From Bacteriophage P2, in sequence record NC_001895.1: a stretch of 33,593 bases of DNA. One strand, written 5' to 3'. The translations under genes and the position numbers were made by a program. The notes below the pieces were generated by a model that had not been told where the DNA came from, searched no databases, and saw nothing but the letters and a program-made list of their open reading frames with translations. Position 1 is the first letter of the stretch; each line of letters opens with the position of its first letter. Shown here piece after piece: positions 1 through 33,593 of the stretch.

Positions 1-19
1 GGCGAGGCGGGGAAAGCAC
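1..19 (+). repeat. cos: Left cohesive-end (cos) sequence; identical 19 nt recurs at 33575-33593
   Basis: Exact 19-nt identity GGCGAGGCGGGGAAAGCAC at both window termini; P2-type phages have 19-nt 5' cohesive ends. Confidence 0.8.
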
Positions 20-12733: not shown

Positions 12734-14743
12734 ATGAGCATAAAATTCAGAACCGTTATCACCACTGCCGGTGCAGCAAAGCTGGCAGCGGCAACCGCGC
12801 CGGGAAGGCGGAAGGTCGGCATTACCACGATGGCCGTCGGGGATGGCGGTGGTAAATTGCCTGTCCCGGATGCCGGACAGACCGGGCTTATCCATGAAGT
12901 CTGGCGACATGCGCTGAACAAAATCAGCCAGGACAAACGAAACAGTAATTATATTATCGCCGAGCTGGTTATTCCGCCGGAGGTGGGCGGTTTCTGGATG
13001 CGTGAGCTTGGCCTGTACGATGATGCGGGAACGTTAATTGCCGTGGCGAACATGGCCGAAAGCTATAAGCCAGCCCTTGCCGAAGGCTCAGGACGTTGGC
13101 AGACCTGTCGCATGGTCATCATCGTCAGCAGTGTGGCCTCAGTGGAGCTGACCATTGACACCACAACGGTGATGGCGACGCAGGATTACGTTGATGACAA
13201 AATTGCAGAGCACGAACAGTCACGACGTCACCCGGACGCCTCGCTGACAGCAAAAGGTTTTACTCAGTTAAGCAGTGCGACCAACAGCACGTCTGAAACA
13301 CTGGCCGCAACGCCGAAAGCGGTAAAGGCCGCGTATGACCTGGCTAACGGGAAATATACCGCACAGGACGCCACCACAGCGCGAAAAGGCCTTGTCCAGC
13401 TTAGTAGCGCCACCAACAGCACGTCTGAAACGCTCGCCGCAACACCAAAAGCCGTTAAGACGGTAATGGATGAAACGAACAAAAAAGCGCCATTAAACAG
13501 CCCTGCACTGACCGGAACGCCAACGACGCCAACTGCGCGACAGGGAACGAATAATACTCAGATCGCAAACACGGCTTTCGTTATGGCCGCGATTGCCGCC
13601 CTTGTAGACTCGTCGCCTGACGCACTGAATACGCTGAACGAGCTGGCGGCGGCGCTGGGCAATGACCCGAATTTTGCTACCACCATGACTAATGCGCTTG
13701 CGGGTAAGCAACCGAAAGATGCTACCCTGACGGCGCTGGCGGGGCTTGCTACTGCGGCAGACAGGTTTCCGTATTTTACGGGGAATGATGTTGCCAGCCT
13801 GGCGACCCTGACAAAAGTCGGGCGGGATATTCTGGCTAAATCGACCGTTGCCGCCGTTATCGAATATCTCGGTTTACAGGAAACGGTAAACCGAGCCGGG
13901 AACGCCGTGCAAAAAAATGGCGATACCTTGTCCGGTGGACTTACTTTTGAAAACGACTCAATCCTTGCCTGGATTCGAAATACTGACTGGGCGAAGATTG
14001 GATTTAAAAATGATGCCGATGGTGACACTGATTCATACATGTGGTTTGAAACGGGGGATAACGGCAATGAATATTTCAAATGGAGAAGCCGCCAGAGTAC
14101 CACAACAAAAGACCTGATGACGTTGAAATGGGATGCACTAAATATTCTTGTTAATGCCGTCATTAATGGCTGTTTTGGAGTTGGTACGACGAATGCACTA
14201 GGTGGTAGCTCTATTGTTCTTGGTGATAATGATACCGGATTTAAACAGAATGGAGACGGTATTCTTGATGTTTATGCTAACAGTCAGCGTGTATTCCGTT
14301 TTCAGAATGGAGTGGCTATTGCTTTTAAAAATATTCAGGCAGGTGATAGTAAAAAGTTCTCGCTATCCAGCTCTAATACATCCACGAAGAATATTACCTT
14401 TAATTTATGGGGTGCTTCCACCCGTCCAGTGGTTGCAGAGTTAGGCGATGAGGCCGGATGGCATTTCTATAGCCAGCGAAATACAGATAACTCGGTAATA
14501 TTTGCTGTTAACGGTCAGATGCAACCCAGCAACTGGGGAAATTTTGATTCCCGCTATGTGAAAGATGTTCGCCTGGGTACGCGAGTTGTTCAATTGATGG
14601 CGCGAGGTGGTCGTTATGAAAAAGCCGGACACACGATTACCGGATTAAGAATCATTGGTGAAGTAGATGGCGATGATGAAGCCATCTTCAGGCCGATACA
14701 AAAATACATCAATGGCACATGGTATAACGTTGCGCAGGTGTAA
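12734..14743 (+). CDS. H: Tail fibre protein
   Basis: 669-aa ORF; internal tandem QLSSATNSTSETLAATPKAVK motif typical of tail fibres; C-terminal third is AT-richer than the N-terminal part. Confidence 0.9.
   Translation: MSIKFRTVITTAGAAKLAAATAPGRRKVGITTMAVGDGGGKLPVPDAGQTGLIHEVWRHALNKISQDKRNSNYIIAELVIPPEVGGFWMRELGLYDDAGTLIAVANMAESYKPALAEGSGRWQTCRMVIIVSSVASVELTIDTTTVMATQDYVDDKIAEHEQSRRHPDASLTAKGFTQLSSATNSTSETLAATPKAVKAAYDLANGKYTAQDATTARKGLVQLSSATNSTSETLAATPKAVKTVMDETNKKAPLNSPALTGTPTTPTARQGTNNTQIANTAFVMAAIAALVDSSPDALNTLNELAAALGNDPNFATTMTNALAGKQPKDATLTALAGLATAADRFPYFTGNDVASLATLTKVGRDILAKSTVAAVIEYLGLQETVNRAGNAVQKNGDTLSGGLTFENDSILAWIRNTDWAKIGFKNDADGDTDSYMWFETGDNGNEYFKWRSRQSTTTKDLMTLKWDALNILVNAVINGCFGVGTTNALGGSSIVLGDNDTGFKQNGDGILDVYANSQRVFRFQNGVAIAFKNIQAGDSKKFSLSSSNTSTKNITFNLWGASTRPVVAELGDEAGWHFYSQRNTDNSVIFAVNGQMQPSNWGNFDSRYVKDVRLGTRVVQLMARGGRYEKAGHTITGLRIIGEVDGDDEAIFRPIQKYINGTWYNVAQV
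13265..13460 (+). repeat. Imperfect direct repeat (about 64 nt, twice, period 132 nt) inside tail fibre gene H
   Basis: 13265-13328 and 13397-13460 are near-identical at nucleotide level; they encode the duplicated peptide QLSSATNSTSETLAATPKAVK; the minus-strand shadow ORF 13264-13482 shows the same duplication. Confidence 0.8.
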
Positions 14744-14746
14744 GTT

Positions 14747-15274
14747 ATGCAGCATTTAAAGAACATTAAGTCAGGTAATCCAAAAACAAAAGAGCAATAT
14801 CAGCTAACAAAGAATTTTGATGTTATCTGGTTATGGTCCGAAGACGGAAAAAACTGGTATGAGGAAGTGAAGAACTTTCAGCCAGACACAATAAAGATTG
14901 TTTACGATGAAAATAATATTATTGTCGCTATCACCAGAGATGCTTCAACGCTTAATCCTGAAGGTTTTAGCGTTGTTGAGGTTCCTGATATTACCTCCAA
15001 CCGACGTGCTGACGACTCAGGTAAATGGATGTTTAAGGATGGTGCTGTGGTTAAACGGATTTATACGGCAGATGAACAGCAACAACAGGCAGAATCACAA
15101 AAGGCCGCGTTACTTTCCGAAGCGGAAAACGTTATTCAGCCACTGGAACGCGCTGTCAGGCTGAATATGGCGACGGATGAGGAACGTGCACGACTGGAGT
15201 CATGGGAACGTTACAGCGTTCTGGTCAGCCGTGTGGATCCTGCAAATCCTGAATGGCCGGAAATGCCGCAATAA
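14747..15274 (+). CDS. G: Tail fibre assembly chaperone
   Basis: 175-aa ORF immediately downstream of H; AT-richer composition shared with the 3' part of H. Confidence 0.85.
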
Positions 15275-15674
15275 GTTGTATGACCTCTGTTGTGAACTTA
15301 CATATCTATGGCACAGAGTAAAGCCTAATCTGAAGTCCACTCTGTGCCAAAAGCGGACCTTATAAACAAGAACAATGGTCATATCAGTGTGTTTTGATTG
15401 CATAGCTAACGTGCGTCTTCCTGTACAGAATCATAAGATGATAGGGCATAGGAGATGATTATTATCGCGTGTTTTAAAAATAGCTTTCTGCATCAAGTGT
15501 CACTTGCGAAGAGGTATTGGCGCTATGATTGGCATCACTCAGTTCAGATAATATTTTAAATATTTGGTAAATGTTCAGATTACACAATTCGGTCTGCGTC
15601 CCGTTAAAATTATCTACTATTAGTTATTACTATGAGGTGAATGGCAAGTGTTTTCCACTCGCCATTTTTGTTTT

Positions 15675-17261
15675 TTATTTTTTTAAAGCCTTTCCGACGT
15701 TTAAGGATTTTGCCAAGCCATAAAATATTTGATATTTCATTCCTGTTTTTATTTTTGGTGAGATATTTGCGTAACTTCTTTCTCTAAAACACCAACGTAT
15801 AAACCTATTATTATCTTCGGTTGTTTCTATATAGCATATTACATTGAGACCAAAAAGAAACTGAAGGAAGTCATTTGCAGTTGTCATGAATTTTGGTTTT
15901 GTTGTGGAAATGGAACTAATATGAGTTTCAAGTTGTTTATATGCTAAGAGGTATTCAGCGTAATCAAAAGTATCTTTTCCAGAGAGGAATTCAAAGAACT
16001 TTAAAAAAATCTCATAATGTTCACTTCCATAATAAAATGATAAATGATCTTTTATTTCTCCAAGTAAATAGTTAGAGTAATCTCTTTGCATGCTAGGACT
16101 TTCAAAGTCATCTAGACTAAATTGATTTTTCCCATCATCACCGCTGGCGTGTGATTTGATAATTTCGAGCATCCGTAATATATCTCTTGGGCGATAATAT
16201 GACCAGCGAAGGAAATTAATAAATGATGTGGGGTGGTTATAATTATCATGGACGTTGGGTGAATCCCAAGGGAAATAATGGTCCCATGCCTGTCCCTTTT
16301 TAAGGGCCATGTCTTGCTGAGTCCTAAGCAGATGATCTAATACCTCAAATAATTGAGAGCTACGGTGGTTAACATATTCTGTCCGCCAGTCCAAGAATAC
16401 TGAATTATCTCTGATTTTTGCGTTTTGATTTTGTAATCCTATGGATTCAAATATATCTGGCCTGATCAAGAGAACGGCCTTCATTCTCCCTTTTCCTCCC
16501 TTTATACTTGGGAAGAAATCGTTGTTAATCTCCCAGACTGCGTGAGCTAATCCTTTTATACATTCTAGATAATCATCGTATGGAATTGAGGAAGGGCGGA
16601 TATCAATACCATCGATAAATAAAATATGATTTTGAGATAAACGTATTTGGCTAAAGGCCTCTTCAAATTTTTTTTGTATATAAAATAAATTTATCTGAAA
16701 TCTGCTCTCAGAAAAAGATAAAGACTCTCTTTCTTCACCTTTTAAGGTTGCATGCTTATGAAGTAGTTCGGCTGCAACTTTTGACTCTTGAACAAAACTG
16801 AGGGCTTGAATTATTTCTGGTGAAAATGCCTTAAGATAATACTCATCTATTGCATCATTAAGTGATGAGAATTTTGAATAATTTAGTAACTTTGAAATTT
16901 TCCCTTCTTTATCTAATACTTGTTTTGATATTAATAAATATAGAATAACTTTCCATATGCCAGAGAAGTCAGACAAATTTAAATGCTTTTCAGATTTAAG
17001 AGTGATAAATTTTTGATATTCTGTCTCTCTTATATATTTAGTTGTAGCTAGCGTATTGTTAATATTGTTATTTGAGAGATAGATAGAGTATGCGGTTTTA
17101 CCAGTACCTTTCTCTCCTACAAGAAACGATATATTTGGTTCACATAATCTAGATAGGTGATTATCACGTATGAACACTTTGTTAAGTAATTCTTTATTCT
17201 CCCTTCTCTTATAATTTTCAGCATCAGCATAGCCAAGAGTTAGATCTTTGATTGGTATCAT
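15675..17261 (-). CDS. fun: Low-GC accessory gene: 528-aa P-loop NTPase (Walker A GEKGTGKT; candidate Walker B ILFIDGIDIR), candidate phage-exclusion protein at the Z/fun position
   Basis: ATG at 17259-17261 with GAGGT RBS; strongly AT-rich; minus strand between plus-strand G and FI; flanked by about 400-bp AT-rich non-coding regions; gene symbol assigned from position in the P2 map, not from sequence comparison. Confidence 0.75.
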   Translation of the reverse strand: MIPIKDLTLGYADAENYKRRENKELLNKVFIRDNHLSRLCEPNISFLVGEKGTGKTAYSIYLSNNNINNTLATTKYIRETEYQKFITLKSEKHLNLSDFSGIWKVILYLLISKQVLDKEGKISKLLNYSKFSSLNDAIDEYYLKAFSPEIIQALSFVQESKVAAELLHKHATLKGEERESLSFSESRFQINLFYIQKKFEEAFSQIRLSQNHILFIDGIDIRPSSIPYDDYLECIKGLAHAVWEINNDFFPSIKGGKGRMKAVLLIRPDIFESIGLQNQNAKIRDNSVFLDWRTEYVNHRSSQLFEVLDHLLRTQQDMALKKGQAWDHYFPWDSPNVHDNYNHPTSFINFLRWSYYRPRDILRMLEIIKSHASGDDGKNQFSLDDFESPSMQRDYSNYLLGEIKDHLSFYYGSEHYEIFLKFFEFLSGKDTFDYAEYLLAYKQLETHISSISTTKPKFMTTANDFLQFLFGLNVICYIETTEDNNRFIRWCFRERSYANISPKIKTGMKYQIFYGLAKSLNVGKALKK

Positions 17262-17651
17262 TATTACCTCAACTAAAGCAATTGAAAAACATATGGTTAT
17301 AAAAACATAGCGCTGCTCTGTCGCATATTGTGGATATCAACATATGAAATGTAAAGGAACTATTTGTGGATGAATGAACCGAATCGCTGTAGCTTCGGTA
17401 GTCATCTTTCAGACTTGTATAAATGAACAACTTCCGCTTCTCGCTCAAAGGAAACTGTCAGATTTGATAGCTTTTGGGCTATGTAAACTGTCAGTCGGAA
17501 AATGAGTGAGTACAAATCAGGGCAGGTGAGCGAATTGCCCGCCTTTTCTTTACCGGTGGTTGTGCTGTCGATTAGCCAACCGGGACAAATAGCCTGACAT
17601 CTCCGGCGCAACTGAAAATACCACTCACCCATTAACCACGGAGTTAAACGG
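17262..17651. promoter_or_regulatory. Divergent intergenic region: promoter of the minus-strand NTPase gene and late promoter for the FI operon
   Basis: 390-bp non-coding gap between divergent genes; P2-type late promoter for the tail sheath operon is expected upstream of FI; exact elements not resolved by eye. Confidence 0.4.
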
Positions 17652-18842
17652 ATGAGTGACTATCATCACGGCGTGCAGGTGCTGGAGATTAACGAGGGCA
17701 CCCGCGTCATTTCCACCGTATCCACGGCCATTGTCGGCATGGTCTGCACGGCCAGCGATGCAGATGCGGAAACCTTCCCCCTCAATAAACCTGTGCTGAT
17801 TACCAATGTGCAGAGCGCAATTTCAAAGGCCGGTAAAAAAGGCACGCTGGCGGCATCGTTGCAGGCCATCGCTGACCAGTCAAAACCGGTCACCGTTGTC
17901 ATGCGCGTGGAAGACGGCACCGGTGATGACGAGGAAACGAAACTCGCGCAGACCGTTTCCAATATCATCGGCACCACCGATGAAAACGGTCAGTACACCG
18001 GACTAAAAGCCATGCTGGCGGCGGAGTCGGTAACCGGTGTTAAACCGCGTATTCTCGGCGTGCCGGGACTGGATACCAAAGAGGTGGCTGTTGCACTGGC
18101 ATCAGTCTGTCAGAAGCTGCGTGCTTTCGGGTATATCAGCGCATGGGGCTGTAAAACCATTTCCGAGGTGAAAGCCTATCGTCAGAATTTCAGCCAGCGT
18201 GAGCTGATGGTCATCTGGCCGGATTTCCTCGCATGGGATACGGTCACCAGTACCACCGCCACCGCGTATGCCACCGCCCGTGCGCTGGGGCTGCGCGCTA
18301 AAATCGACCAGGAGCAGGGCTGGCATAAAACGCTGTCCAATGTCGGGGTGAACGGTGTTACCGGCATCAGCGCATCTGTATTCTGGGATTTGCAGGAGTC
18401 CGGCACCGATGCTGACCTGCTTAACGAGTCAGGCGTCACTACGCTGATTCGCCGCGACGGTTTCCGCTTCTGGGGTAACCGTACCTGCTCTGATGACCCG
18501 CTGTTCCTCTTTGAAAACTACACCCGCACCGCGCAGGTCGTGGCCGACACGATGGCTGAGGCGCACATGTGGGCGGTGGACAAGCCCATCACTGCAACGC
18601 TGATTCGCGACATCGTTGACGGCATCAATGCCAAATTCCGTGAGCTGAAAACAAACGGCTATATCGTGGATGCGACCTGCTGGTTCAGCGAAGAATCCAA
18701 CGATGCGGAAACCCTCAAGGCCGGAAAACTGTATATCGACTACGACTATACACCGGTGCCTCCTCTCGAAAACCTGACCCTGCGCCAGCGTATTACCGAT
18801 AAATACCTGGCAAATCTGGTCACCTCGGTTAACAGCAATTAA
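17652..18842 (+). CDS. FI: Contractile tail sheath protein
   Basis: 396-aa ORF; expected position and length. Confidence 0.9.
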   Translation: MSDYHHGVQVLEINEGTRVISTVSTAIVGMVCTASDADAETFPLNKPVLITNVQSAISKAGKKGTLAASLQAIADQSKPVTVVMRVEDGTGDDEETKLAQTVSNIIGTTDENGQYTGLKAMLAAESVTGVKPRILGVPGLDTKEVAVALASVCQKLRAFGYISAWGCKTISEVKAYRQNFSQRELMVIWPDFLAWDTVTSTTATAYATARALGLRAKIDQEQGWHKTLSNVGVNGVTGISASVFWDLQESGTDADLLNESGVTTLIRRDGFRFWGNRTCSDDPLFLFENYTRTAQVVADTMAEAHMWAVDKPITATLIRDIVDGINAKFRELKTNGYIVDATCWFSEESNDAETLKAGKLYIDYDYTPVPPLENLTLRQRITDKYLANLVTSVNSN

Positions 18843-18854
18843 GGAGCCTGACCG

Positions 18855-19373
18855 ATGGCAATGCCGCGCAAACTCAAGTTAATGAACGTCTTTCTGAACG
18901 GCTACAGCTATCAGGGCGTTGCAAAGTCCGTCACGCTGCCAAAACTGACCCGTAAGCTCGAAAACTATCGCGGTGCGGGGATGAACGGCAGCGCACCGGT
19001 AGACCTCGGCCTTGATGACGATGCGCTGTCAATGGAGTGGTCGCTCGGTGGCTTCCCGGATTCGGTTATCTGGGAGCTTTACGCCGCAACCGGTGTGGAT
19101 GCCGTGCCGATTCGTTTTGCAGGCTCTTACCAGCGCGACGATACCGGCGAAACGGTGGCCGTCGAAGTGGTCATGCGTGGACGTCAGAAAGAAATCGACA
19201 CCGGCGAGGGTAAACAGGGAGAAGACACTGAGTCGAAAATCTCCGTGGTCTGCACCTATTTCCGGCTGACGATGGACGGTAAGGAGCTGGTCGAAATTGA
19301 CACCATCAACATGATTGAGAAGGTGAACGGCGTCGATCGGCTGGAGCAACACCGCCGCAATATCGGCCTGTGA
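18855..19373 (+). CDS. FII: Tail tube protein
   Basis: 172-aa ORF following the sheath gene. Confidence 0.9.
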   Translation: MAMPRKLKLMNVFLNGYSYQGVAKSVTLPKLTRKLENYRGAGMNGSAPVDLGLDDDALSMEWSLGGFPDSVIWELYAATGVDAVPIRFAGSYQRDDTGETVAVEVVMRGRQKEIDTGEGKQGEDTESKISVVCTYFRLTMDGKELVEIDTINMIEKVNGVDRLEQHRRNIGL

Positions 19374-19429: not shown

Positions 19430-19705
19430 ATGAACAAAGAAAATGTCATTACCCTGGACAATCCGGTCAAACGTGGTGAGCAGGTTATCGAACAGGTCAC
19501 GCTGATGAAACCCAGTGCCGGGACGCTACGCGGTGTCAGTCTGGCTGCGGTTGCAAACTCCGAAGTCGATGCACTGATTAAGGTGCTGCCGCGCATGACG
19601 GCACCGATGCTGACCGAGCAGGAAGTCGCCGCGCTGGAACTGCCTGACCTTGTGGCGCTGGCCGGTAAGGTGGTCGGTTTTTTGTCGCCGAACTCGGTGC
19701 AGTGA
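19430..19705 (+). CDS. E: Tail assembly chaperone E
   Basis: 91-aa ORF between tube and tape measure genes; contains slippery GGTTTTTTG near its 3' end. Confidence 0.85.
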   Translation: MNKENVITLDNPVKRGEQVIEQVTLMKPSAGTLRGVSLAAVANSEVDALIKVLPRMTAPMLTEQEVAALELPDLVALAGKVVGFLSPNSVQ

Positions 19706-19857
19706 CGTTTCCGAAAAATCTCTCGGTCGATGACCTGATGGCGGATGTGGCAGTGATATTTCACTGGCCGCCATCAGAACTGTATCCCATGAGCCTGACC
19801 GAACTCATCACATGGCGCGAAAAGGCGCTCCGGCGAAGCGGAAACACGAATGAGTAA
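19430..19857 (+). CDS. E': E+E' fusion produced by programmed -1 translational frameshift (about 142 aa)
   Basis: T6-G slippery run at 19678-19684; the -1 frame is open from the slip site to TAA at 19855-19857 (…FPKNLSVDDLMADVAVIFHWPPSELYPMSLTELITWREKALRRSGNTNE), ending overlapped with the T start. Confidence 0.8.
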
Positions 19858-22297
19858 CAATGTAAAATTACAGGTATTGCTCAGGGCTGTTGACCAGGCA
19901 TCCCGCCCGTTTAAATCCATCCGCACAGCGAGCAAGTCGCTGTCGGGGGATATCCGGGAAACACAAAAATCACTGCGCGAGCTGAACGGTCACGCATCCC
20001 GTATTGAGGGATTCCGCAAGACCAGTGCACAGCTCGCCGTGACTGGTCATGCACTTGAAAAGGCACGGCAGGAGGCCGAAGCCCTTGCCACACAGTTTAA
20101 AAACACCGAACGTCCGACCCGTGCTCAGGCGAAAGTCCTGGAATCCGCAAAGCGTGCGGCGGAGGACTTACAGGCGAAATATAACCGCCTGACAGATTCC
20201 GTTAAACGCCAGCAGCGGGAACTGGCCGCTGTGGGAATTAATACCCGCAATCTTGCACATGATGAGCAGGGACTGAAAAACCGTATCAGTGAAACCACCG
20301 CACAGCTTAACCGTCAGCGTGATGCGCTGGTGCGTGTCAGTGCGCAACAGGCAAAACTTAACGCAGTAAAACAGCGTTATCAGGCCGGAAAGGAACTGGC
20401 CGGAAATATGGCCTCAGTGGGCGCTGCCGGTGTGGGGATTGCGGCGGCGGGAACGATGGCCGGTGTTAAGCTACTGATGCCCGGTTATGAGTTTGCGCAG
20501 AAAAACTCAGAATTACAGGCTGTGATCGGAGTGGCAAAAGACTCCGCCGAAATGGCCGCACTCCGCAAGCAGGCGCGCCAGCTCGGCGACAATACCGCCG
20601 CCTCGGCAGATGATGCAGCCGGTGCGCAGATTATTATTGCGAAAGCCGGTGGGGATGTTGATGCCATTCAGGCGGCAACGCCGGTCACGCTGAACATGGC
20701 GCTGGCGAACCGTCGCACAATGGAAGAAAACGCCGCCCTGCTGATGGGGATGAAATCCGCCTTTCAGCTTTCAAACGATAAGGTCGCTCATATCGGGGAT
20801 GTTCTCTCCATGACGATGAACAAAACCGCCGCCGATTTTGACGGCATGAGCGATGCGCTGACCTATGCCGCACCTGTGGCAAAAAATGCCGGTGTCAGCA
20901 TTGAAGAAACCGCCGCAATGGTCGGGGCGCTGCATGATGCAAAAATCACAGGCTCAATGGCGGGGACGGGAAGCCGTGCCGTGTTAAGCCGCCTGCAGGC
21001 ACCGACGGGAAAAGCATGGGATGCACTCAAAGAGCTTGGAGTGAAAACCTCAGACAGCAAAGGAAACACCCGGCCAATATTTACCATTCTGAAAGAAATG
21101 CAGGCCAGTTTTGAGAAAAACCGGCTCGGTACTGCCCAGCAGGCTGAATACATGAAAACTATTTTCGGGGAGGAGGCCAGCTCAGCCGCTGCCGTGCTGA
21201 TGACTGCCGCCTCAACCGGAAAGCTGGACAAACTGACCGCTGCGTTTAAAGCCTCAGACGGGAAGACCGCCGAGCTGGTAAATATCATGCAGGACAACCT
21301 AGGCGGTGACTTTAAAGCGTTTCAGTCCGCTTATGAGGCGGTGGGGACTGACCTGTTTGACCAGCAGGAAGGCGCGCTGCGTAAGCTCACGCAGACGGCC
21401 ACAAAGTATGTGTTAAAACTCGACGGCTGGATACAGAAAAACAAATCACTGGCGTCAACCATCGGCATCATTGCCGGCGGTGCACTGGCGCTTACTGGCA
21501 TCATCGGTGCCATTGGCCTCGTAGCCTGGCCGGTTATCACCGGCATCAATGCCATCATCGCGGCAGCAGGCGCAATGGGGGCAGTCTTCACGACGGTTGG
21601 CAGTGCTGTTATGACCGCCATCGGGGCTATTAGCTGGCCGGTTGTGGCCGTGGTGGCTGCCATTGTCGCCGGTGCGTTGCTTATCCGTAAATACTGGGAG
21701 CCTGTCAGCGCATTCTTTGGTGGTGTGGTTGAAGGGCTGAAAGCGGCATTTGCGCCGGTGGGGGAACTGTTCACGCCACTTAAACCGGTTTTTGACTGGC
21801 TGGGCGAAAAGTTACAGGCCGCGTGGCAGTGGTTTAAAAACCTGATTGCCCCGGTCAAAGCCACCCAGGACACCCTGAACCGTTGCCGTGACACGGGCGT
21901 CATGTTCGGGCAGGCACTGGCTGACGCGTTGATGCTGCCGCTTAATGCGTTCAACAAACTGCGCAGTGGTATTGACTGGGTACTGGAAAAACTCGGTGTT
22001 ATCAACAAAGAGTCAGACACACTTGACCAGACCGCCGCCAGAACTCATACCGCCACGTATGGTACCGGTGACTATATTCCGGCGACCAGCTCTTATGCAG
22101 GCTATCAGGCTTATCAGCCGGTCACGGCACCGGCTGGCCGCTCTTATGTAGACCAGAGTAAAAACGAATATCACATCAGCCTGACGGGGGGGACTGCGCC
22201 GGGGACACAGCTTGACCGCCAGTTACAGGATGCGCTCGAAAAATACGAGCGGGATAAACGTGCGCGCGCCCGTGCCAGCATGATGCATGACGGTTAA
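19850..22297 (+). CDS. T: Tail tape measure protein
   Basis: 815-aa ORF with coiled-coil N-terminal half and Gly/Ala-rich hydrophobic central segment; expected position. Confidence 0.9.
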   Translation: MSNNVKLQVLLRAVDQASRPFKSIRTASKSLSGDIRETQKSLRELNGHASRIEGFRKTSAQLAVTGHALEKARQEAEALATQFKNTERPTRAQAKVLESAKRAAEDLQAKYNRLTDSVKRQQRELAAVGINTRNLAHDEQGLKNRISETTAQLNRQRDALVRVSAQQAKLNAVKQRYQAGKELAGNMASVGAAGVGIAAAGTMAGVKLLMPGYEFAQKNSELQAVIGVAKDSAEMAALRKQARQLGDNTAASADDAAGAQIIIAKAGGDVDAIQAATPVTLNMALANRRTMEENAALLMGMKSAFQLSNDKVAHIGDVLSMTMNKTAADFDGMSDALTYAAPVAKNAGVSIEETAAMVGALHDAKITGSMAGTGSRAVLSRLQAPTGKAWDALKELGVKTSDSKGNTRPIFTILKEMQASFEKNRLGTAQQAEYMKTIFGEEASSAAAVLMTAASTGKLDKLTAAFKASDGKTAELVNIMQDNLGGDFKAFQSAYEAVGTDLFDQQEGALRKLTQTATKYVLKLDGWIQKNKSLASTIGIIAGGALALTGIIGAIGLVAWPVITGINAIIAAAGAMGAVFTTVGSAVMTAIGAISWPVVAVVAAIVAGALLIRKYWEPVSAFFGGVVEGLKAAFAPVGELFTPLKPVFDWLGEKLQAAWQWFKNLIAPVKATQDTLNRCRDTGVMFGQALADALMLPLNAFNKLRSGIDWVLEKLGVINKESDTLDQTAARTHTATYGTGDYIPATSSYAGYQAYQPVTAPAGRSYVDQSKNEYHISLTGGTAPGTQLDRQLQDALEKYERDKRARARASMMHDG

Positions 22298-30319: not shown

Positions 30320-30645
30320 TGGCAAAAATTCACGAGGTAAAGCTGCACGCAAAATATTTCGACCTTGTACTGGAAGGAAAGAAACGCGCAGAGTTTCGGA
30401 AAAAAGATCGTAATTATGAGCGCGGGGACACGTTGATTTTGCATGAATGGGTGCAGGGTGTGTTTACGGGGCGAAAGGTTGAAGCCCGGATAACAGATGT
30501 TACTGACCTGTCAGACTGGCTGGAAGATTATGTCTTGCTGCACAGAATACTAGGTGAGATACTGCCGCTGACTGTCAAGCTGGCAGTATCCTCCACATTT
30601 TTTATAAATCTAAGGCGAAGAACGGTGGCAATATATTTGCTTTAA
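30316..30645 (+). CDS. ASCH/DUF3850-like small protein (orf91 position)
   Basis: ATGATG at 30316-30321 overlapping the A stop; pattern KIHEVKLHAKYFDLVLEGKKRAEFRKKDRNYERGDTLILHEW resembles ASCH/DUF3850 (PUA-like) domain proteins. Confidence 0.65.
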   Translation: MMAKIHEVKLHAKYFDLVLEGKKRAEFRKKDRNYERGDTLILHEWVQGVFTGRKVEARITDVTDLSDWLEDYVLLHRILGEILPLTVKLAVSSTFFINLRRRTVAIYLL

Positions 30646-30683
30646 ATTGTAAATAAGCAAATTATTCTAAGCCACAAATGATA

Positions 30684-31445
30684 TCAATTGAGTATCGATT
30701 TTCGTTCGAATATAACCATAACGCCAAGCGTCAAATGTAAGTCATCTATATGTGATTCGTATTCATATTGGTCAGCATCAGGAGATAGTAAATGCTCTGC
30801 TGCTGTAAAAACATCAATTGTAACAGATATATCGTCTGGAATTTCTTCATTTAATTCGGATATGTATTTTTTATATTTGTTTTTTAATTTCCTTATCATG
30901 TCTTCCTTATGGTGGATTGTAGTGCAGTAATTTTTTTTAGTTGAATCATTGTATGAATGGAATGAACAGTTTAATGCTAGGCCAAGACTTGAATTTCCTG
31001 TAGGGCCTGTGTGTTTAAAGTATTCAAGATTTCTTCTTATGTCAGAAAATAAAAGACTTTTACAGGGGGCATTTCCTTTAACTTCTATTGCACATATTGG
31101 AATGTCGAAAAATGGTCTGCTGTCCAATATGGCAATATCAATTCTGCCTGATCTTGTTGTGTTTGTGTTTTTTCTGACAGTTTTTTTTGAGAATATTTTT
31201 TGGGGGTCAGACCGTTTCGATAAAGGAACTGTTGCATTAATGAATTTATTTGTATGGTACTCAAATATAACTTTGTAATCACCATGGCGAAAAGATTTTA
31301 TTTCTAACAACGATAGACCTATAGATACGGTAGCTACATATTCAGTGTTTATTTTTGCACCAGACCTGAAATCCATTAAATAAGTTGCGTCGGCTGACTT
31401 TTTCATTCCATCTTTTACAGCTTTCACAATATCCATGTTATTCAT
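30684..31445 (-). CDS. tin: Low-GC accessory gene: 253-aa protein at the tin position (T-even phage inhibition), with a possible PD-(D/E)xK-like motif
   Basis: ATG at 31443-31445 with AGGTG RBS; AT-rich; minus strand downstream of old; motif IDIAILD...x13...EVK in residues about 101-123; gene symbol assigned from position in the P2 map. Confidence 0.75.
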   Translation of the reverse strand: MNNMDIVKAVKDGMKKSADATYLMDFRSGAKINTEYVATVSIGLSLLEIKSFRHGDYKVIFEYHTNKFINATVPLSKRSDPQKIFSKKTVRKNTNTTRSGRIDIAILDSRPFFDIPICAIEVKGNAPCKSLLFSDIRRNLEYFKHTGPTGNSSLGLALNCSFHSYNDSTKKNYCTTIHHKEDMIRKLKNKYKKYISELNEEIPDDISVTIDVFTAAEHLLSPDADQYEYESHIDDLHLTLGVMVIFERKSILN

Positions 31446-31619
31446 ATCAACACCTTTTATATTCCAGAATTATAAATCTTAATGATTGATTTGTTTGTGT
31501 GTTTAGGTTACTAGATTGACGTACTTATAGCACATTCTGATTTTGAAATCACCATCCTTGGGTAAAGCACAGCCTATCACTATTGGTTTAGTACTGTGCT
31601 GTAATAGTATCAGATTAAG

Positions 31620-33380
31620 TTAAATCCATTTTATGAAATCTTCCATTTCATCATATTTTTTTATTACTGCTCTAACATCTTTGCTTTCATCACATAAACA
31701 ATCTAAAAGACTATCCCATTCAGTTTGTTTTTTACCAAATCCATAAACAGCCTCTATATCACCGGATTTCCATATATAGATTCCGTTATCTTTCAATTTT
31801 TGATGTATTTCATGTATATGCTTTTGTGTTTTTTCATGGTTACATATTTTGATGAAGTCTTTGCTTGAAATGCTTTTGAATGACTCAAAAGTAGTAACTT
31901 TTGTATTTAAACTAAGCTCTCCTGAGTTGATTGATTCAATCAAAGCAGTCAATAGATTATCACATTCAGTACTAAGTAAGTCTTTATGCTCTGTTAATAG
32001 AATATTTGATAAGAAATCACAATCAGCTAGAATCCTTGTTTTTATGCCGATGGCATTGATGATTTGTGACATCTTAAATAAACTACCCTTACCGTCAACG
32101 GCAACAATGCAGATTTTACTCGGGTTGAGTTCATGTCCGTTAATTTTTTTATAAAGTGCATATAGAACGTTTGTCTCTGTTTTCCCTTCAACAAGCAAAA
32201 CTTCTTCAGAAAATAAAAGGTATGATGAATTAGAAAGCGTGAATGCTGAGTGCAATTGCGGTGATGAAGATTTATATAATTCTTCGATTTTTTCAGATAT
32301 AGTCTTCCTTGCTATGGTTCCATTAGAATCCTTACAAACCTGAATCGCATTTGCTGCATGCTTTGCAGAAAGCATACTGGCTGAGTGAGTTGATATTATA
32401 ACCTGATACCCTGATTCACTTAATGTGACAAGTGATTCTCTGACAGAATTAATGGCTGAAGGGTGTAAATATAACTCAGGTTCATCAATGAAAATCAAAG
32501 TGTTTGATTTTTTTGATTCGCTGTTTTCTTTTTTTATTTCGGCCAGGTATTGAATTAATGCCATTTGAATGGAACGTTGTGTTCCGTGACCAAATCGGCT
32601 GATATCTCTCATTACCGGTTCATCTTCCCGAGACTCAAAAACTTTCAGAGTGCCGGATTTAAATATCTCATCTAATGTCGGTGTGGGAAAGTGTAACTTT
32701 ACACTTACGTCAGGAAAAAATTGGTTTACTTTTTTATTTACACCTGAGTCTATTTTATTAAGGCTTTCTAATCTGTTCTCACCGTTGTGAGAAAGATATT
32801 TACCTATTTCTGATATGTTTTTTGAAAATTTTTCTTCGTGTTCTTGTTTTATTTCAGAAACAATTGCGGAAAGTATCTTTCCTATTGTGGTCGTGTTTTT
32901 GCATTTTGTTGAGTCTTCGACAGCGTCAGACATTGCAGGGATATGAATTGGTTCCGGAAATATATTGGAGATTGCACCATCTATGCCGCCAGGGTTTTTC
33001 TTCCACGTGGTACCGTCATATACATCCAGACTTTTTTTGGCTTTTCCTGTTTCCTTATTAAATTCCTGTCTTCTTGCAAAGGTAAGAGTCCCGTCAATTA
33101 TAAACGGAGCTATTTTTTGTTGATTCTCTTCTGTTAACAAAGACAGAGTATCATCTGTTATACCTTGAATAACGCCTTCAACGGATACGGGGTGTGTAGG
33201 ATCGTACACATCTGATTCTGAAATCAAAGAGCCATCTAACAGCCACTTAATTGCTAAGATAATATTTGATTTTCCTGCGTTATTATAACCAACTAAAGCA
33301 GTGAAGGGGCGCAAAATAGCCGATGTTGACTTACAAGAACGAAAGTTGCTAATTGAAACTGAAGCAAGACGTACAGTCAT
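31620..33380 (-). CDS. old: OLD-family nuclease: N-terminal ABC-type ATPase fused to C-terminal TOPRIM domain (anti-phage / overcoming lysogenisation defect)
   Basis: 586 aa; Walker A GYNNAGKSN near N-terminus; Walker B LIFIDEPELYLHP; TOPRIM-like LLVEGKTETNVL and DxD in ILADCDFLS; AT-rich; last gene before right cos. Confidence 0.85.
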   Translation of the reverse strand: MTVRLASVSISNFRSCKSTSAILRPFTALVGYNNAGKSNIILAIKWLLDGSLISESDVYDPTHPVSVEGVIQGITDDTLSLLTEENQQKIAPFIIDGTLTFARRQEFNKETGKAKKSLDVYDGTTWKKNPGGIDGAISNIFPEPIHIPAMSDAVEDSTKCKNTTTIGKILSAIVSEIKQEHEEKFSKNISEIGKYLSHNGENRLESLNKIDSGVNKKVNQFFPDVSVKLHFPTPTLDEIFKSGTLKVFESREDEPVMRDISRFGHGTQRSIQMALIQYLAEIKKENSESKKSNTLIFIDEPELYLHPSAINSVRESLVTLSESGYQVIISTHSASMLSAKHAANAIQVCKDSNGTIARKTISEKIEELYKSSSPQLHSAFTLSNSSYLLFSEEVLLVEGKTETNVLYALYKKINGHELNPSKICIVAVDGKGSLFKMSQIINAIGIKTRILADCDFLSNILLTEHKDLLSTECDNLLTALIESINSGELSLNTKVTTFESFKSISSKDFIKICNHEKTQKHIHEIHQKLKDNGIYIWKSGDIEAVYGFGKKQTEWDSLLDCLCDESKDVRAVIKKYDEMEDFIKWI

Positions 33381-33574
33381 TATTTTTCCTTAAATGTGCT
33401 ATTTGTATGCAATGAGTTCATACGAAACGCTTTTTTACATTTTATAGTCGTTGCATTCAAGGGTGCATGAGATTGCATTAAGGGAAACTGTGATATGGCT
33501 TGGCTTTTGACTGGAAATACTGATGGCTCATTAGTTTTATTAAGGTGCATTAAAACCGCCCCGTGAAGCGGGCG

Positions 33575-33593
33575 GGCGAGGCGGGGAAAGCAC
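33575..33593 (+). repeat. cos: Right cohesive-end (cos) sequence, identical to 1-19
   Basis: Exact 19-nt identity with the window start; preceded by GC-rich palindrome CCGCCC...GGGCGG at about 33557-33577. Confidence 0.8.

What the first reader, a model, noticed from the sequence alone, without database searches (positions are those of the whole stretch)
19672..19857. Programmed -1 ribosomal frameshift site (GGTTTTTTG) producing an E+E' tail chaperone
Near the 3' end of E there is a T6-G slippery run at 19678-19684. The -1 frame is open from there for about 58 codons and terminates at TAA 19855-19857, inside the ATG-overlap with the tape measure gene T. This mirrors the conserved G/GT-type frameshift of tail assembly chaperones placed just upstream of tape measure genes.
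Basis: partly seen in the sequence, partly recalled or inferred. Interest (0 to 1): 0.5.

Follow-up and report, generated by a model that had tools for sequence, protein, structure and literature searches.

The report
Phage P2 E/E+E' tail-chaperone frameshift

The parts
17652..18842 (+). FI, tail sheath gene (context; first gene of the FETUD operon)
   Evidence: 396-aa ORF. Pfam Phage_sheath_1, Phage_sheath_1C and Gp18_domIII_N.
18855..19373 (+). FII, tail tube gene, immediately upstream of E
   Evidence: 172-aa ORF. Pfam Phage_tube, E 2e-60.
19430..19705 (+). Gene E, zero-frame product gpE (91 aa), tail assembly chaperone
19666..19668 (+). TAA stop in the -1 frame; upstream limit of the 37-nt window in which the shift must happen
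   Evidence: The 37-nt overlap is also quoted from Christie 2002 in PMC3931495.
19668..19672 (+). AGGTG, Shine-Dalgarno-like element; candidate (unproven) upstream frameshift stimulator
   Evidence: AAGGTGGTCG pairs with the 16S 3' tail at -12.8 kcal/mol, top 1% of the locus. Codons AAG and GTG have synonymous variability of 0.06 and 0.17 against a background mean of 0.49. Matches AGGKG with 6 nt before the motif's second base, which is Sharma 2014's criterion. The synonymous-resampling null is only weak: P2 p = 0.043, Fisher p = 0.037.
19678..19684 (+). Slippery heptamer T_TTT_TTG, the -1 shift site
   Evidence: In phase with E. Present in 165 of 171 related sequences, with T-run variants in 4 more. 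Synonymous sites are fixed: GGT 44/44, TTT 44/44, TTG 42/44. Named as the P2 shift site in PMC3091744.
19684..19857 (+). E', the -1-frame extension (57 codons plus TAA) read after the slip; E+E' = 19430-19684 joined to 19684-19857, 142 aa
   Evidence: Translation. Pfam PF06528 Phage_P2_GpE, 76.3 bits, on fusion residues 104-139. phrog_1756 covers residues 82-142, across the junction. The -1 peptide is conserved from the first codon after the heptamer.
19702..19704 (+). GTG used by many database records as an independent start of E'; not a conserved start
   Evidence: Annotated as a CDS start in RefSeq relatives. Present in only 1 of 44 de-replicated relatives (P2 itself); 30 of 44 have no start codon between the slip site and the DDLMAD motif.
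19850..22297 (+). Gene T, tape measure protein; its ATG overlaps the E' stop (ATGAGTAA)
   Evidence: 815-aa ORF. Pfam PhageMin_Tail, E 2e-45. The E'-stop/T-start overlap is conserved in relatives.

Best explanation
This is the programmed -1 ribosomal frameshift of phage P2 gene E. Most ribosomes translating E read GGT TTT TTG and stop six codons later at TGA 19703, giving the 91-aa gpE. A minority slip back one base on T_TTT_TTG (19678-19684). The P-site tRNA-Phe re-pairs from UUU (19679-81) to UUU (19678-80), and the A-site tRNA re-pairs from UUG to UUU (19681-83). These ribosomes then read GTC GCC GAA... in the -1 frame to TAA 19855, giving the 142-aa gpE+E'. By analogy with lambda gpG/gpGT, the shared E module binds the tape measure protein gpT, and the E' module recruits the tube protein gpFII so that the tube polymerises around the tape measure. 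The shift frequency sets a fixed E:E+E' ratio. Shown here: sequence geometry, domain content of both frames, chaperone-like fold, gene position, deep conservation of the two-frame arrangement, and nucleotide-level conservation of the heptamer. Taken from the literature: that the fusion is made by a -1 shift at this site, and that P2's efficiency is two- to threefold higher than lambda's. Inferred: the binding partners of each module, tandem rather than P-site-only slippage, and any role for the upstream AGGTG.
Against: Nothing argues against the frameshift itself. Open points on mechanism: U_UUU_UUG is intrinsically weak in E. coli reporters, at 0.118% with no stimulator, 0.247% with the IS911 stimulators and 0.765% with the IS3 pseudoknot (PMC4066793 Table S3). 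No significant downstream structure was found (z = -0.99; also PMC3091744). So the reported efficiency of several percent is unexplained. The junction residue is unresolved, since databases hold both F-L-V (Wphi gpE+E') and F-F-V (QTN08932.1) versions. I could not read the primary paper, so experimental claims rest on secondary citations. The roles of the E and E' modules are by analogy with lambda.
Confidence: 0.95

Rival explanations
1. E' is an independent small gene translated from GTG 19702 (51 aa), as annotated in many RefSeq and PGAP records, with no frameshift.
For: A mechanical ORF runs 19702-19857. RefSeq phage records and E. coli genomes annotate exactly this CDS as 'tail protein' or 'GpE family phage tail protein'.
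Against: The GTG occurs in only 1 of 44 de-replicated relatives, and 30 of 44 have no ATG/GTG/TTG at all between the slip site and the DDLMAD motif. The -1-frame peptide F-V-A/T-E/G-F/L-G is conserved upstream of that GTG. phrog_1756 aligns from fusion residue 82, across the junction. The literature says E' lacks a ribosome binding site (PMC3931495).
Confidence: 0.02
2. The -1 product arises from transcriptional slippage: RNA polymerase adds an extra U in the T6 run, so a subset of mRNAs encodes E+E' in one frame.
For: The site is a homopolymeric T6 run. Fusion-protein assays alone would not separate RNA-level from ribosome-level slippage.
Against: T6 is shorter than the runs generally associated with efficient RNA polymerase slippage (my knowledge). 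Even U7 gave only 0.33% total shifting without a stimulator in E. coli reporters (PMC4066793 Table S3). Distant relatives keep the -1 arrangement with non-homopolymeric heptamers (GGGAAAG, CCCTTTC, AAATTTT) that support tRNA re-pairing but not polymerase stuttering. The codon phase of the run is invariant.
Confidence: 0.03
3. The shift is ribosomal, but by P-site-only slippage while the A site waits for the scarce UUG-reading tRNA-Leu, rather than by tandem slippage. The junction would then read F-F-V instead of F-L-V.
For: The U_UUU_UUG heptamer performs poorly as a tandem-slippage motif in E. coli, and the U_UUG tetramer is barely above background (PMC4066793). TTG, not the commoner CTG, is fixed at this Leu codon, in 42 of 44 relatives. 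Both junction versions are deposited in databases.
Against: The same reporter data show no strong P-site-only activity for U_UUG either. The G is also constrained by coding, since it gives Leu in E and the first base of Val in E'. Distant lineages use classic tandem heptamers.
Confidence: 0.15
4. It is a chance coincidence of a T-run and an open alternative frame with no function.
For: Fourteen mechanical heptamer-plus-long-(-1)-frame cases exist in this window alone.
Against: The -1 frame encodes a Pfam family at 76 bits and is conserved across Peduoviridae from many host genera. The heptamer is fixed at synonymous sites. Published experiments are cited.
Confidence: 0.005

Closest known systems
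Phage P2 E / E+E' programmed -1 frameshift (Christie, Temple, Bartlett & Goodwin 2002, J Bacteriol 184:6522)
   Same: Everything. It has the same genome, the same TTTTTTG, E of 91 aa and E+E' of 142 aa, a 37-nt overlap, a possible GUG about 20 nt downstream, and an E' end that overlaps the T start.
   Different: Nothing. This is that site. I could reach the primary paper only through secondary citations.
Phage lambda G / GT tail assembly chaperone frameshift (Levin 1993; Xu, Hendrix & Duda 2004, 2013, 2014)
   Same: A -1 shift near the 3' end of a small gene between the major tail gene and the tape measure gene. It gives a short abundant product and a rare C-terminally extended one, neither found in the virion, and the ratio matters for assembly (PMC5009743).
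   Different: There is no sequence similarity. P2 has a contractile tail, so E' presumably recruits the tube protein FII. The heptamer differs (lambda uses G_GGA_AAG, from my memory). P2's efficiency is reported as two- to threefold higher.
Phage 186 orf51/orf52 (gene H) and other Peduoviridae E/E' pairs (KS5, Mana, phiCTX, RSY1 and others)
   Same: These are orthologous pairs with the same TTTTTTG in phase, and they are annotated as frameshift products.
   Different: Amino-acid identity is only 38-75%. The most distant members use other heptamers: TTTTTTC, TTTTTTT, GGGAAAG, CCCTTTC, AAATTTT.
E. coli dnaX and IS911-type -1 frameshift signals with an upstream Shine-Dalgarno-like stimulator
   Same: P2 has AGGTG with 6 nt before the motif's second base. 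That sequence and spacing fall in the class shown experimentally to stimulate -1 shifting (PMC4066793 methods).
   Different: dnaX and IS911 use A_AAA_AAG plus a downstream hairpin or pseudoknot. P2 uses the much weaker U_UUU_UUG and has no detectable downstream structure. Stimulation by the P2 element has not been tested.
HK97 tail assembly chaperone structure (PDB 2OB9)

Membership tests
G/GT-type tail assembly chaperone frameshift pair (Xu, Hendrix & Duda 2004) | Located between the major tail (tube) gene and the tape measure gene | tested here: met
   FII (Phage_tube) 18855-19373, E 19430-19705, T (PhageMin_Tail) 19850-22297.
G/GT-type tail assembly chaperone frameshift pair (Xu, Hendrix & Duda 2004) | Second ORF overlaps the 3' end of the first in the -1 frame and lacks its own conserved start | tested here: met
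   The -1 frame is open 19669-19857. The GTG at 19702 is found in 1 of 44 relatives, and 30 of 44 have no start codon.
G/GT-type tail assembly chaperone frameshift pair (Xu, Hendrix & Duda 2004) | In-phase X_XXY_YYZ slippery heptamer inside the overlap | tested here: met
   T_TTT_TTG at 19678-19684, in phase. Conserved in 165 of 171 sequences, with variants in others. Synonymous sites are fixed.
G/GT-type tail assembly chaperone frameshift pair (Xu, Hendrix & Duda 2004) | Fusion protein actually made at a low, fixed ratio and required for tail assembly | not testable with these tools
   Literature only: PMC3091744, PMC5009743 and PMC3931495, all citing Christie 2002.
Pfam PF10109 Phage_TAC_7 plus PF06528 Phage_P2_GpE | Score above the curated gathering threshold | tested here: met
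   PF10109 scores 47.8 bits (cut-off 25) on E. PF06528 scores 76.3 bits (cut-off 23) on the -1 extension.
Tail assembly chaperone fold (HK97 TAC, PDB 2OB9) | Structural similarity of the E module to a solved tail assembly chaperone | tested here: met
SD-stimulated -1 frameshift signals (dnaX / IS911 type) | [quoted passage not shown] | tested here: met
   AGGTG at a 6-nt gap in P2. Present in 40 of 44 enterobacterial relatives and 13 of 19 genus-level lineages, against a 14% background.
SD-stimulated -1 frameshift signals (dnaX / IS911 type) | Selection on the SD-like nucleotides beyond what the encoded peptide requires | tested here: inconclusive
   Synonymous variability at AAG and GTG is 0.06 and 0.17 against a background of 0.49, and K, Q and E variants all keep xAG. 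However, the codon-resampling null is weak: 3 of 17 lineages at p < 0.05, Fisher p = 0.037.
SD-stimulated -1 frameshift signals (dnaX / IS911 type) | Downstream stimulatory hairpin or pseudoknot | tested here: not met
   The 86 nt downstream fold with z = -0.99. The consensus fold has a covariation term of -0.51. The literature reports no hairpin.
Transcriptional slippage sites | Long homopolymeric run conserved irrespective of codon phase | tested here: not met
   The run is only T6. Its phase is invariant, and distant relatives use heteropolymeric heptamers.

The most novel reading that the evidence does not exclude
The P2-type shift site may not be stimulator-free, as it is usually described. 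Its intrinsically weak U_UUU_UUG motif gives about 0.1% shifting alone and under 1% even with a strong pseudoknot in E. coli reporters. It may reach several percent because a conserved Shine-Dalgarno-like AGGUG (19668-19672), 6 nt before the motif's second base, pairs with the 16S rRNA 3' tail of the translating ribosome, as at dnaX and IS911. Alternatively, some other unrecognised context feature accounts for a gap of about 10- to 100-fold. I found no mention of this element in the searchable literature, but I could not read the primary 2002 paper.
Probability: 0.35. Interest if true: 0.3.

Novelty: already known. Interest (0 to 1): 0.12.

Why it matters
As a discovery it does not matter, because this is the founding example of the tail-chaperone frameshift in contractile-tailed temperate phages. 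Two practical points remain. First, the same locus occurs in 1,583 of 5,426 complete E. coli genomes, and the records I inspected annotate it as two separate genes, with E' starting at a GTG that is not conserved. So the 142-aa E+E' protein appears to be widely missing from proteomes. Second, published reporter data make U_UUU_UUG look far too weak to explain P2's shift level. The site is therefore a compact, genetically tractable case for asking what sets frameshift efficiency without a downstream RNA structure.

Tried and rejected
1. I tried to read Christie 2002 by DOI and PMC135442, and Christie & Calendar 2016 by PMC4836473. None is held, so I relied on secondary citations.

2. Downstream stimulatory structure: single-sequence folding of 19685-19770 gave z = -0.99. 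RNAalifold on 30 relatives gave a covariation term of -0.51. Rejected.

3. A long-range helix between AGGU.GUCGG (19668-19677) and UCGAUGACCU (19727-19736) has 95.6% of cells paired, but covariation is no better than shuffles (298 of 500). It would also straddle a ribosome sitting on the heptamer. Not supported, but not excluded as a reason for AGGTG conservation.

4. Anti-SD energy test against synonymous-codon resampling: only 3 of 17 lineages reach p < 0.05. Much of the SD-like signal follows from the conserved (K/E)-V-(V/I) peptide, which downgraded the SD idea to unproven.

5. Foldseek against the PDB gave no meaningful match, best E = 4.4. A sequence search of the PDB gave nothing.

6. 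Rfam found no family anywhere in the window.

7. Independent initiation at GTG 19702 was rejected.

8. The P2 reference record itself seems absent from the phage collection, where the best match over FI-D was 97.3%. I established identity through gpE = TAP_BPP2, the identical 19-nt ends and the genome length.

Full report
**What is in the sequence**

The stretch 19676-19684 reads GGTTTTTTG. Gene E starts at ATG 19430 and ends at TGA 19703-19705, giving 91 aa. In its frame the codons are GGT (19676), TTT (19679) and TTG (19682), so the heptamer 19678-19684 is T_TTT_TTG in the X_XXY_YYZ phase that tandem -1 slippage needs. The -1 frame is closed by TAA at 19666-19668 and then open from 19669 to TAA 19855-19857. 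That leaves a 37-nt window in which a shift must occur. The -1 stop lies inside ATGAGTAA, where the 815-aa tape measure gene T begins (ATG 19850).

**Is it more than chance?**

The pattern alone is not. A mechanical scan of this window finds 90 in-phase X_XXY_YYZ heptamers in ORFs of at least 80 aa. Fourteen of them have a -1 frame running at least 30 codons past the zero-frame stop. Most are shadow ORFs overlapping real genes. The case therefore rests on the evidence below.

**What the window is**

- The window is 33,593 bases and carries the same 19-mer, GGCGAGGCGGGGAAAGCAC, at both ends.
- Its gpE is residue-for-residue identical to UniProt TAP_BPP2, 'Tail assembly protein E' of phage P2.
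- The gene order is sheath (FI), tube (FII), E, tape measure (T), U, D, each with the expected Pfam family.
- From memory, 33,593 bp is the length of the P2 genome and the 19-mer is its cohesive end.
- I conclude that the window is the complete phage P2 genome. The P2 reference record seems to be missing from the phage collection searched, where the best hit over FI-D was 97.3%.

**Both frames encode real, related-function protein modules**

- E matches Pfam PF10109, 'Phage tail assembly chaperone proteins, E, or 41 or 14' (47.8 bits).
- The -1 extension matches PF06528 Phage_P2_GpE (76.3 bits).
- PHROGs gives two tail families. phrog_103 covers residues 1-88, and phrog_1756 covers 82-142, aligning across the junction.
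- An AlphaFold model built from natural fused homologues has a mean pLDDT of 73. It shows a reasonably confident E module, a disordered linker at residues 89-95 just after the junction, and a helical E' module.
- Foldseek against the PDB found nothing.

**Comparative evidence**

A tblastn search with the fusion finds 422 phage records. 399 of them cover at least 80% of it, and in every such row listed the match comes as two pieces, meaning two frames. The hosts include Escherichia, Klebsiella, Yersinia, Burkholderia, Ralstonia, Pseudomonas, Vibrio, Mannheimia and Zymomonas.

I analysed 171 sequences: the window, phage records, 80 viral contigs and 80 species-representative bacterial genomes.

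- In 169, E' is in the -1 frame with an in-phase T-run heptamer in the overlap.
- 165 of these carry exactly TTTTTTG; the others have TTTTTTA, TTTTTTC or TTTTTTT.
- The two remaining sequences are a Mannheimia phage with GGGAAAG and a frame-broken copy in a Symbiopectobacterium symbiont.

Across 19 genus-level lineages the -1 relation is universal. The most distant lineages use other heptamers: TTTTTTC, TTTTTTT, GGGAAAG, CCCTTTC and AAATTTT. What is conserved is therefore the recoding event, not one string. This also argues for tRNA re-pairing rather than polymerase stuttering.

**Nucleotide-level selection**

I scanned 44 de-replicated enterobacterial relatives. The measure was the fraction of same-amino-acid pairs that use different codons. 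Across 62 upstream E codons it averages 0.49, with a minimum of 0.10.

| Codon | Value | Codon use at this position |
|---|---|---|
| GGT | 0.00 | GGT 44 of 44 |
| TTT | 0.00 | TTT 44 of 44 |
| TTG | 0.09 | TTG 42 of 44 |

Other Leu codons in the segment are mostly CTG, and other Gly and Phe codons vary freely.

**The independent-start rival fails**

Many RefSeq and PGAP records annotate E' as its own CDS from the GTG equivalent to 19702, or omit it altogether. That GTG is present only in P2 among the 44 de-replicated relatives. Thirty of the 44 have no ATG, GTG or TTG between the slip site and the invariant DDLMAD motif. The -1 peptide is nevertheless conserved from the first codon after the heptamer (F-V-A/T-E/G-F/L-G...).

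**Literature**

- Lynch et al. 2010 (PMC3091744) state that in P2 the -1 frameshift occurs at TTTTTTG and produces the 91-aa E and the 142-aa E+E' from one start. They add that no downstream hairpin exists in P2. They cite Christie et al. 2002 and Xu et al. 2004.
- Lee et al. [quoted passage not shown] All of this matches the window.
- Atkins et al. 2016 (PMC5009743) describe the lambda G/GT mechanism. The shared G part binds the tape measure, the T part binds the major tail protein, and the products are made at about 30:1. They note that efficiency in P2 and its relatives is two- to threefold higher.
- My memory of the Christie abstract is a frequency of about 10% and proof by complementation and fusion polypeptides. 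I could not open that paper.
- Phage 186, KS5, Mana and FLC10 records already annotate the frameshift.

**Mechanism**

The best-supported account is a programmed -1 ribosomal frameshift by slippage on T_TTT_TTG. It yields a fixed minority of E+E' alongside gpE. By analogy with lambda, E binds gpT and E' recruits the tube protein. The E' stop overlaps the T start in nearly all lineages, by 8 nt in P2, 186, YenM56.17 and ST437phi4.1 and by 4 nt in Mana, KS5 and phiE12-2. This suggests possible translational coupling of T to the -1 frame, which is an inference.

The junction residue is not settled by sequence. Tandem slippage predicts F-L-V, as in the deposited Wphi gpE+E'. P-site-only slippage predicts F-F-V, a version that is also deposited.

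**A loose end**

Sharma et al. 2014 (PMC4066793, Table S3) measured U_UUU_UUG in E. coli reporters.

| Context | -1 frameshifting |
|---|---|
| No stimulator | 0.118% |
| IS911 stimulators | 0.247% |
| IS3 pseudoknot | 0.765% |

The motif is not among the efficient E. coli motifs. The 86 nt downstream of the P2 site fold no better than shuffles (z = -0.99), and the consensus fold of 30 relatives has negligible covariation. Something else must raise the efficiency by 10- to 100-fold.

The candidate is AGGTG at 19668-19672.

- AAGGTGGTCG pairs with the 16S 3' tail at -12.8 kcal/mol, in the top 1% of the locus.
- The two codons that carry it, AAG and GTG, have synonymous variability of 0.06 and 0.17, while the flanking codons are ordinary at 0.60 and 0.50.
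- Lysine there is AAG 34 to AAA 1, against AAA 64 to AAG 30 elsewhere in E.
- K, Q and E variants all keep xAG.
- AGGTG matches AGGKG with a 6-nt gap. That is one of the sequences, and within the 6-17-nt spacing range, that Sharma et al. list as experimentally stimulatory.
- By that criterion 40 of 44 enterobacterial relatives and 13 of 19 genus-level lineages qualify, against a 14% background.

Two results cut the other way. A synonymous-codon resampling null is only weakly significant: P2 p = 0.043, 3 of 17 lineages below 0.05, Fisher p = 0.037. Much of the signal therefore follows from the conserved (K/E)-V-(V/I) peptide. The alternative pairing with downstream GAUGACCU is well formed but shows no covariation. 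I rate the SD-like stimulator as plausible but unproven. I found no mention of it in the searchable literature.

**Verdict**

The feature is already known: it is the type example for Peduoviridae. Interest is low. The residual value lies in the annotation gap and the unexplained efficiency of a weak heptamer. The locus is in 1,583 of 5,426 complete E. coli genomes, and the records I inspected annotate it as two genes.

Noticed in passing
window 1-19 and 33575-33593: The same 19-mer, GGCGAGGCGGGGAAAGCAC, is at both ends of the window. Together with the 33,593-bp length, this indicates a complete linear P2 genome deposited with both cohesive ends. The cos assignment is from memory.
   Followed up: partly
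window 15675-17261 (minus strand), within the low-GC island at about 14000-17500: A 528-aa ORF on the opposite strand sits between the tail-fibre genes and FI. The region has 34-41% GC against about 56% in the flanks, and the ORF has no Pfam hit. From memory this is the P2 Z/fun position, a known hotspot for accessory or defence cargo.
   Followed up: partly
window about 30500-33593: A second low-GC island (32-42% GC) is dense in T6 runs. From memory this is the tin/old accessory region of P2. I did not examine it.
   Followed up: no
window 19668-19672 (AGGTG), with 19667-19675 AAGGTGGTC: [quoted passage not shown] Its synonymous variability is unusually low (0.06 and 0.17 against a background of 0.49). 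It fits published criteria for -1 frameshift stimulators, but support from a codon-resampling null is only weak.
   Followed up: yes
window 19702-19857; L001 1823-1978; L181 623-778: The RefSeq phage and E. coli records I inspected annotate E' as a stand-alone 51-aa CDS starting at a GTG found only in P2 among 44 relatives, or they omit E' entirely (S164). The 142-aa E+E' is therefore missing from those annotations. The locus is present in 1,583 of 5,426 complete E. coli genomes.
   Followed up: yes
window 19850-19857 (ATGAGTAA) and the equivalent positions in L003, L004, L005, L171, L173, L176: The E' stop overlaps the tape measure start codon in nearly all lineages, by 8 nt or 4 nt. This raises the possibility that T translation is coupled to ribosomes arriving in the -1 frame. 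FLC10 is an exception, with a 2-nt gap.
   Followed up: partly
window 19668-19677 paired with 19727-19736: RNAalifold proposes a helix between the SD-like element and a downstream GAUGACCU, which itself resembles the 16S anti-SD tail. 95.6% of cells pair across 30 relatives, but there is no covariation beyond shuffles.
   Followed up: yes
L007 (Ralstonia phage RSY1) 349-819: ORF30 is annotated as a single 471-nt CDS. It appears to be the long open -1 frame of a GC-rich genome rather than the true E / E+E' pair, and the in-phase TTTTTTG is present at L007 646.
   Followed up: partly
L145 (Candidatus Symbiopectobacterium endolongispinus): This is the only relative in which E' is in the +1 frame, with no overlap and no heptamer. 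It is probably a decaying prophage in a symbiont genome.
   Followed up: no
proteins P0001 (QTN08932.1) and P0020 (Wphi gpE+E'): Databases hold two versions of the junction...GFFVAELG... and ...GFLVAELG.... Annotators have placed the slip at different bases, and the true residue has not been settled by anything I could access.
   Followed up: partly
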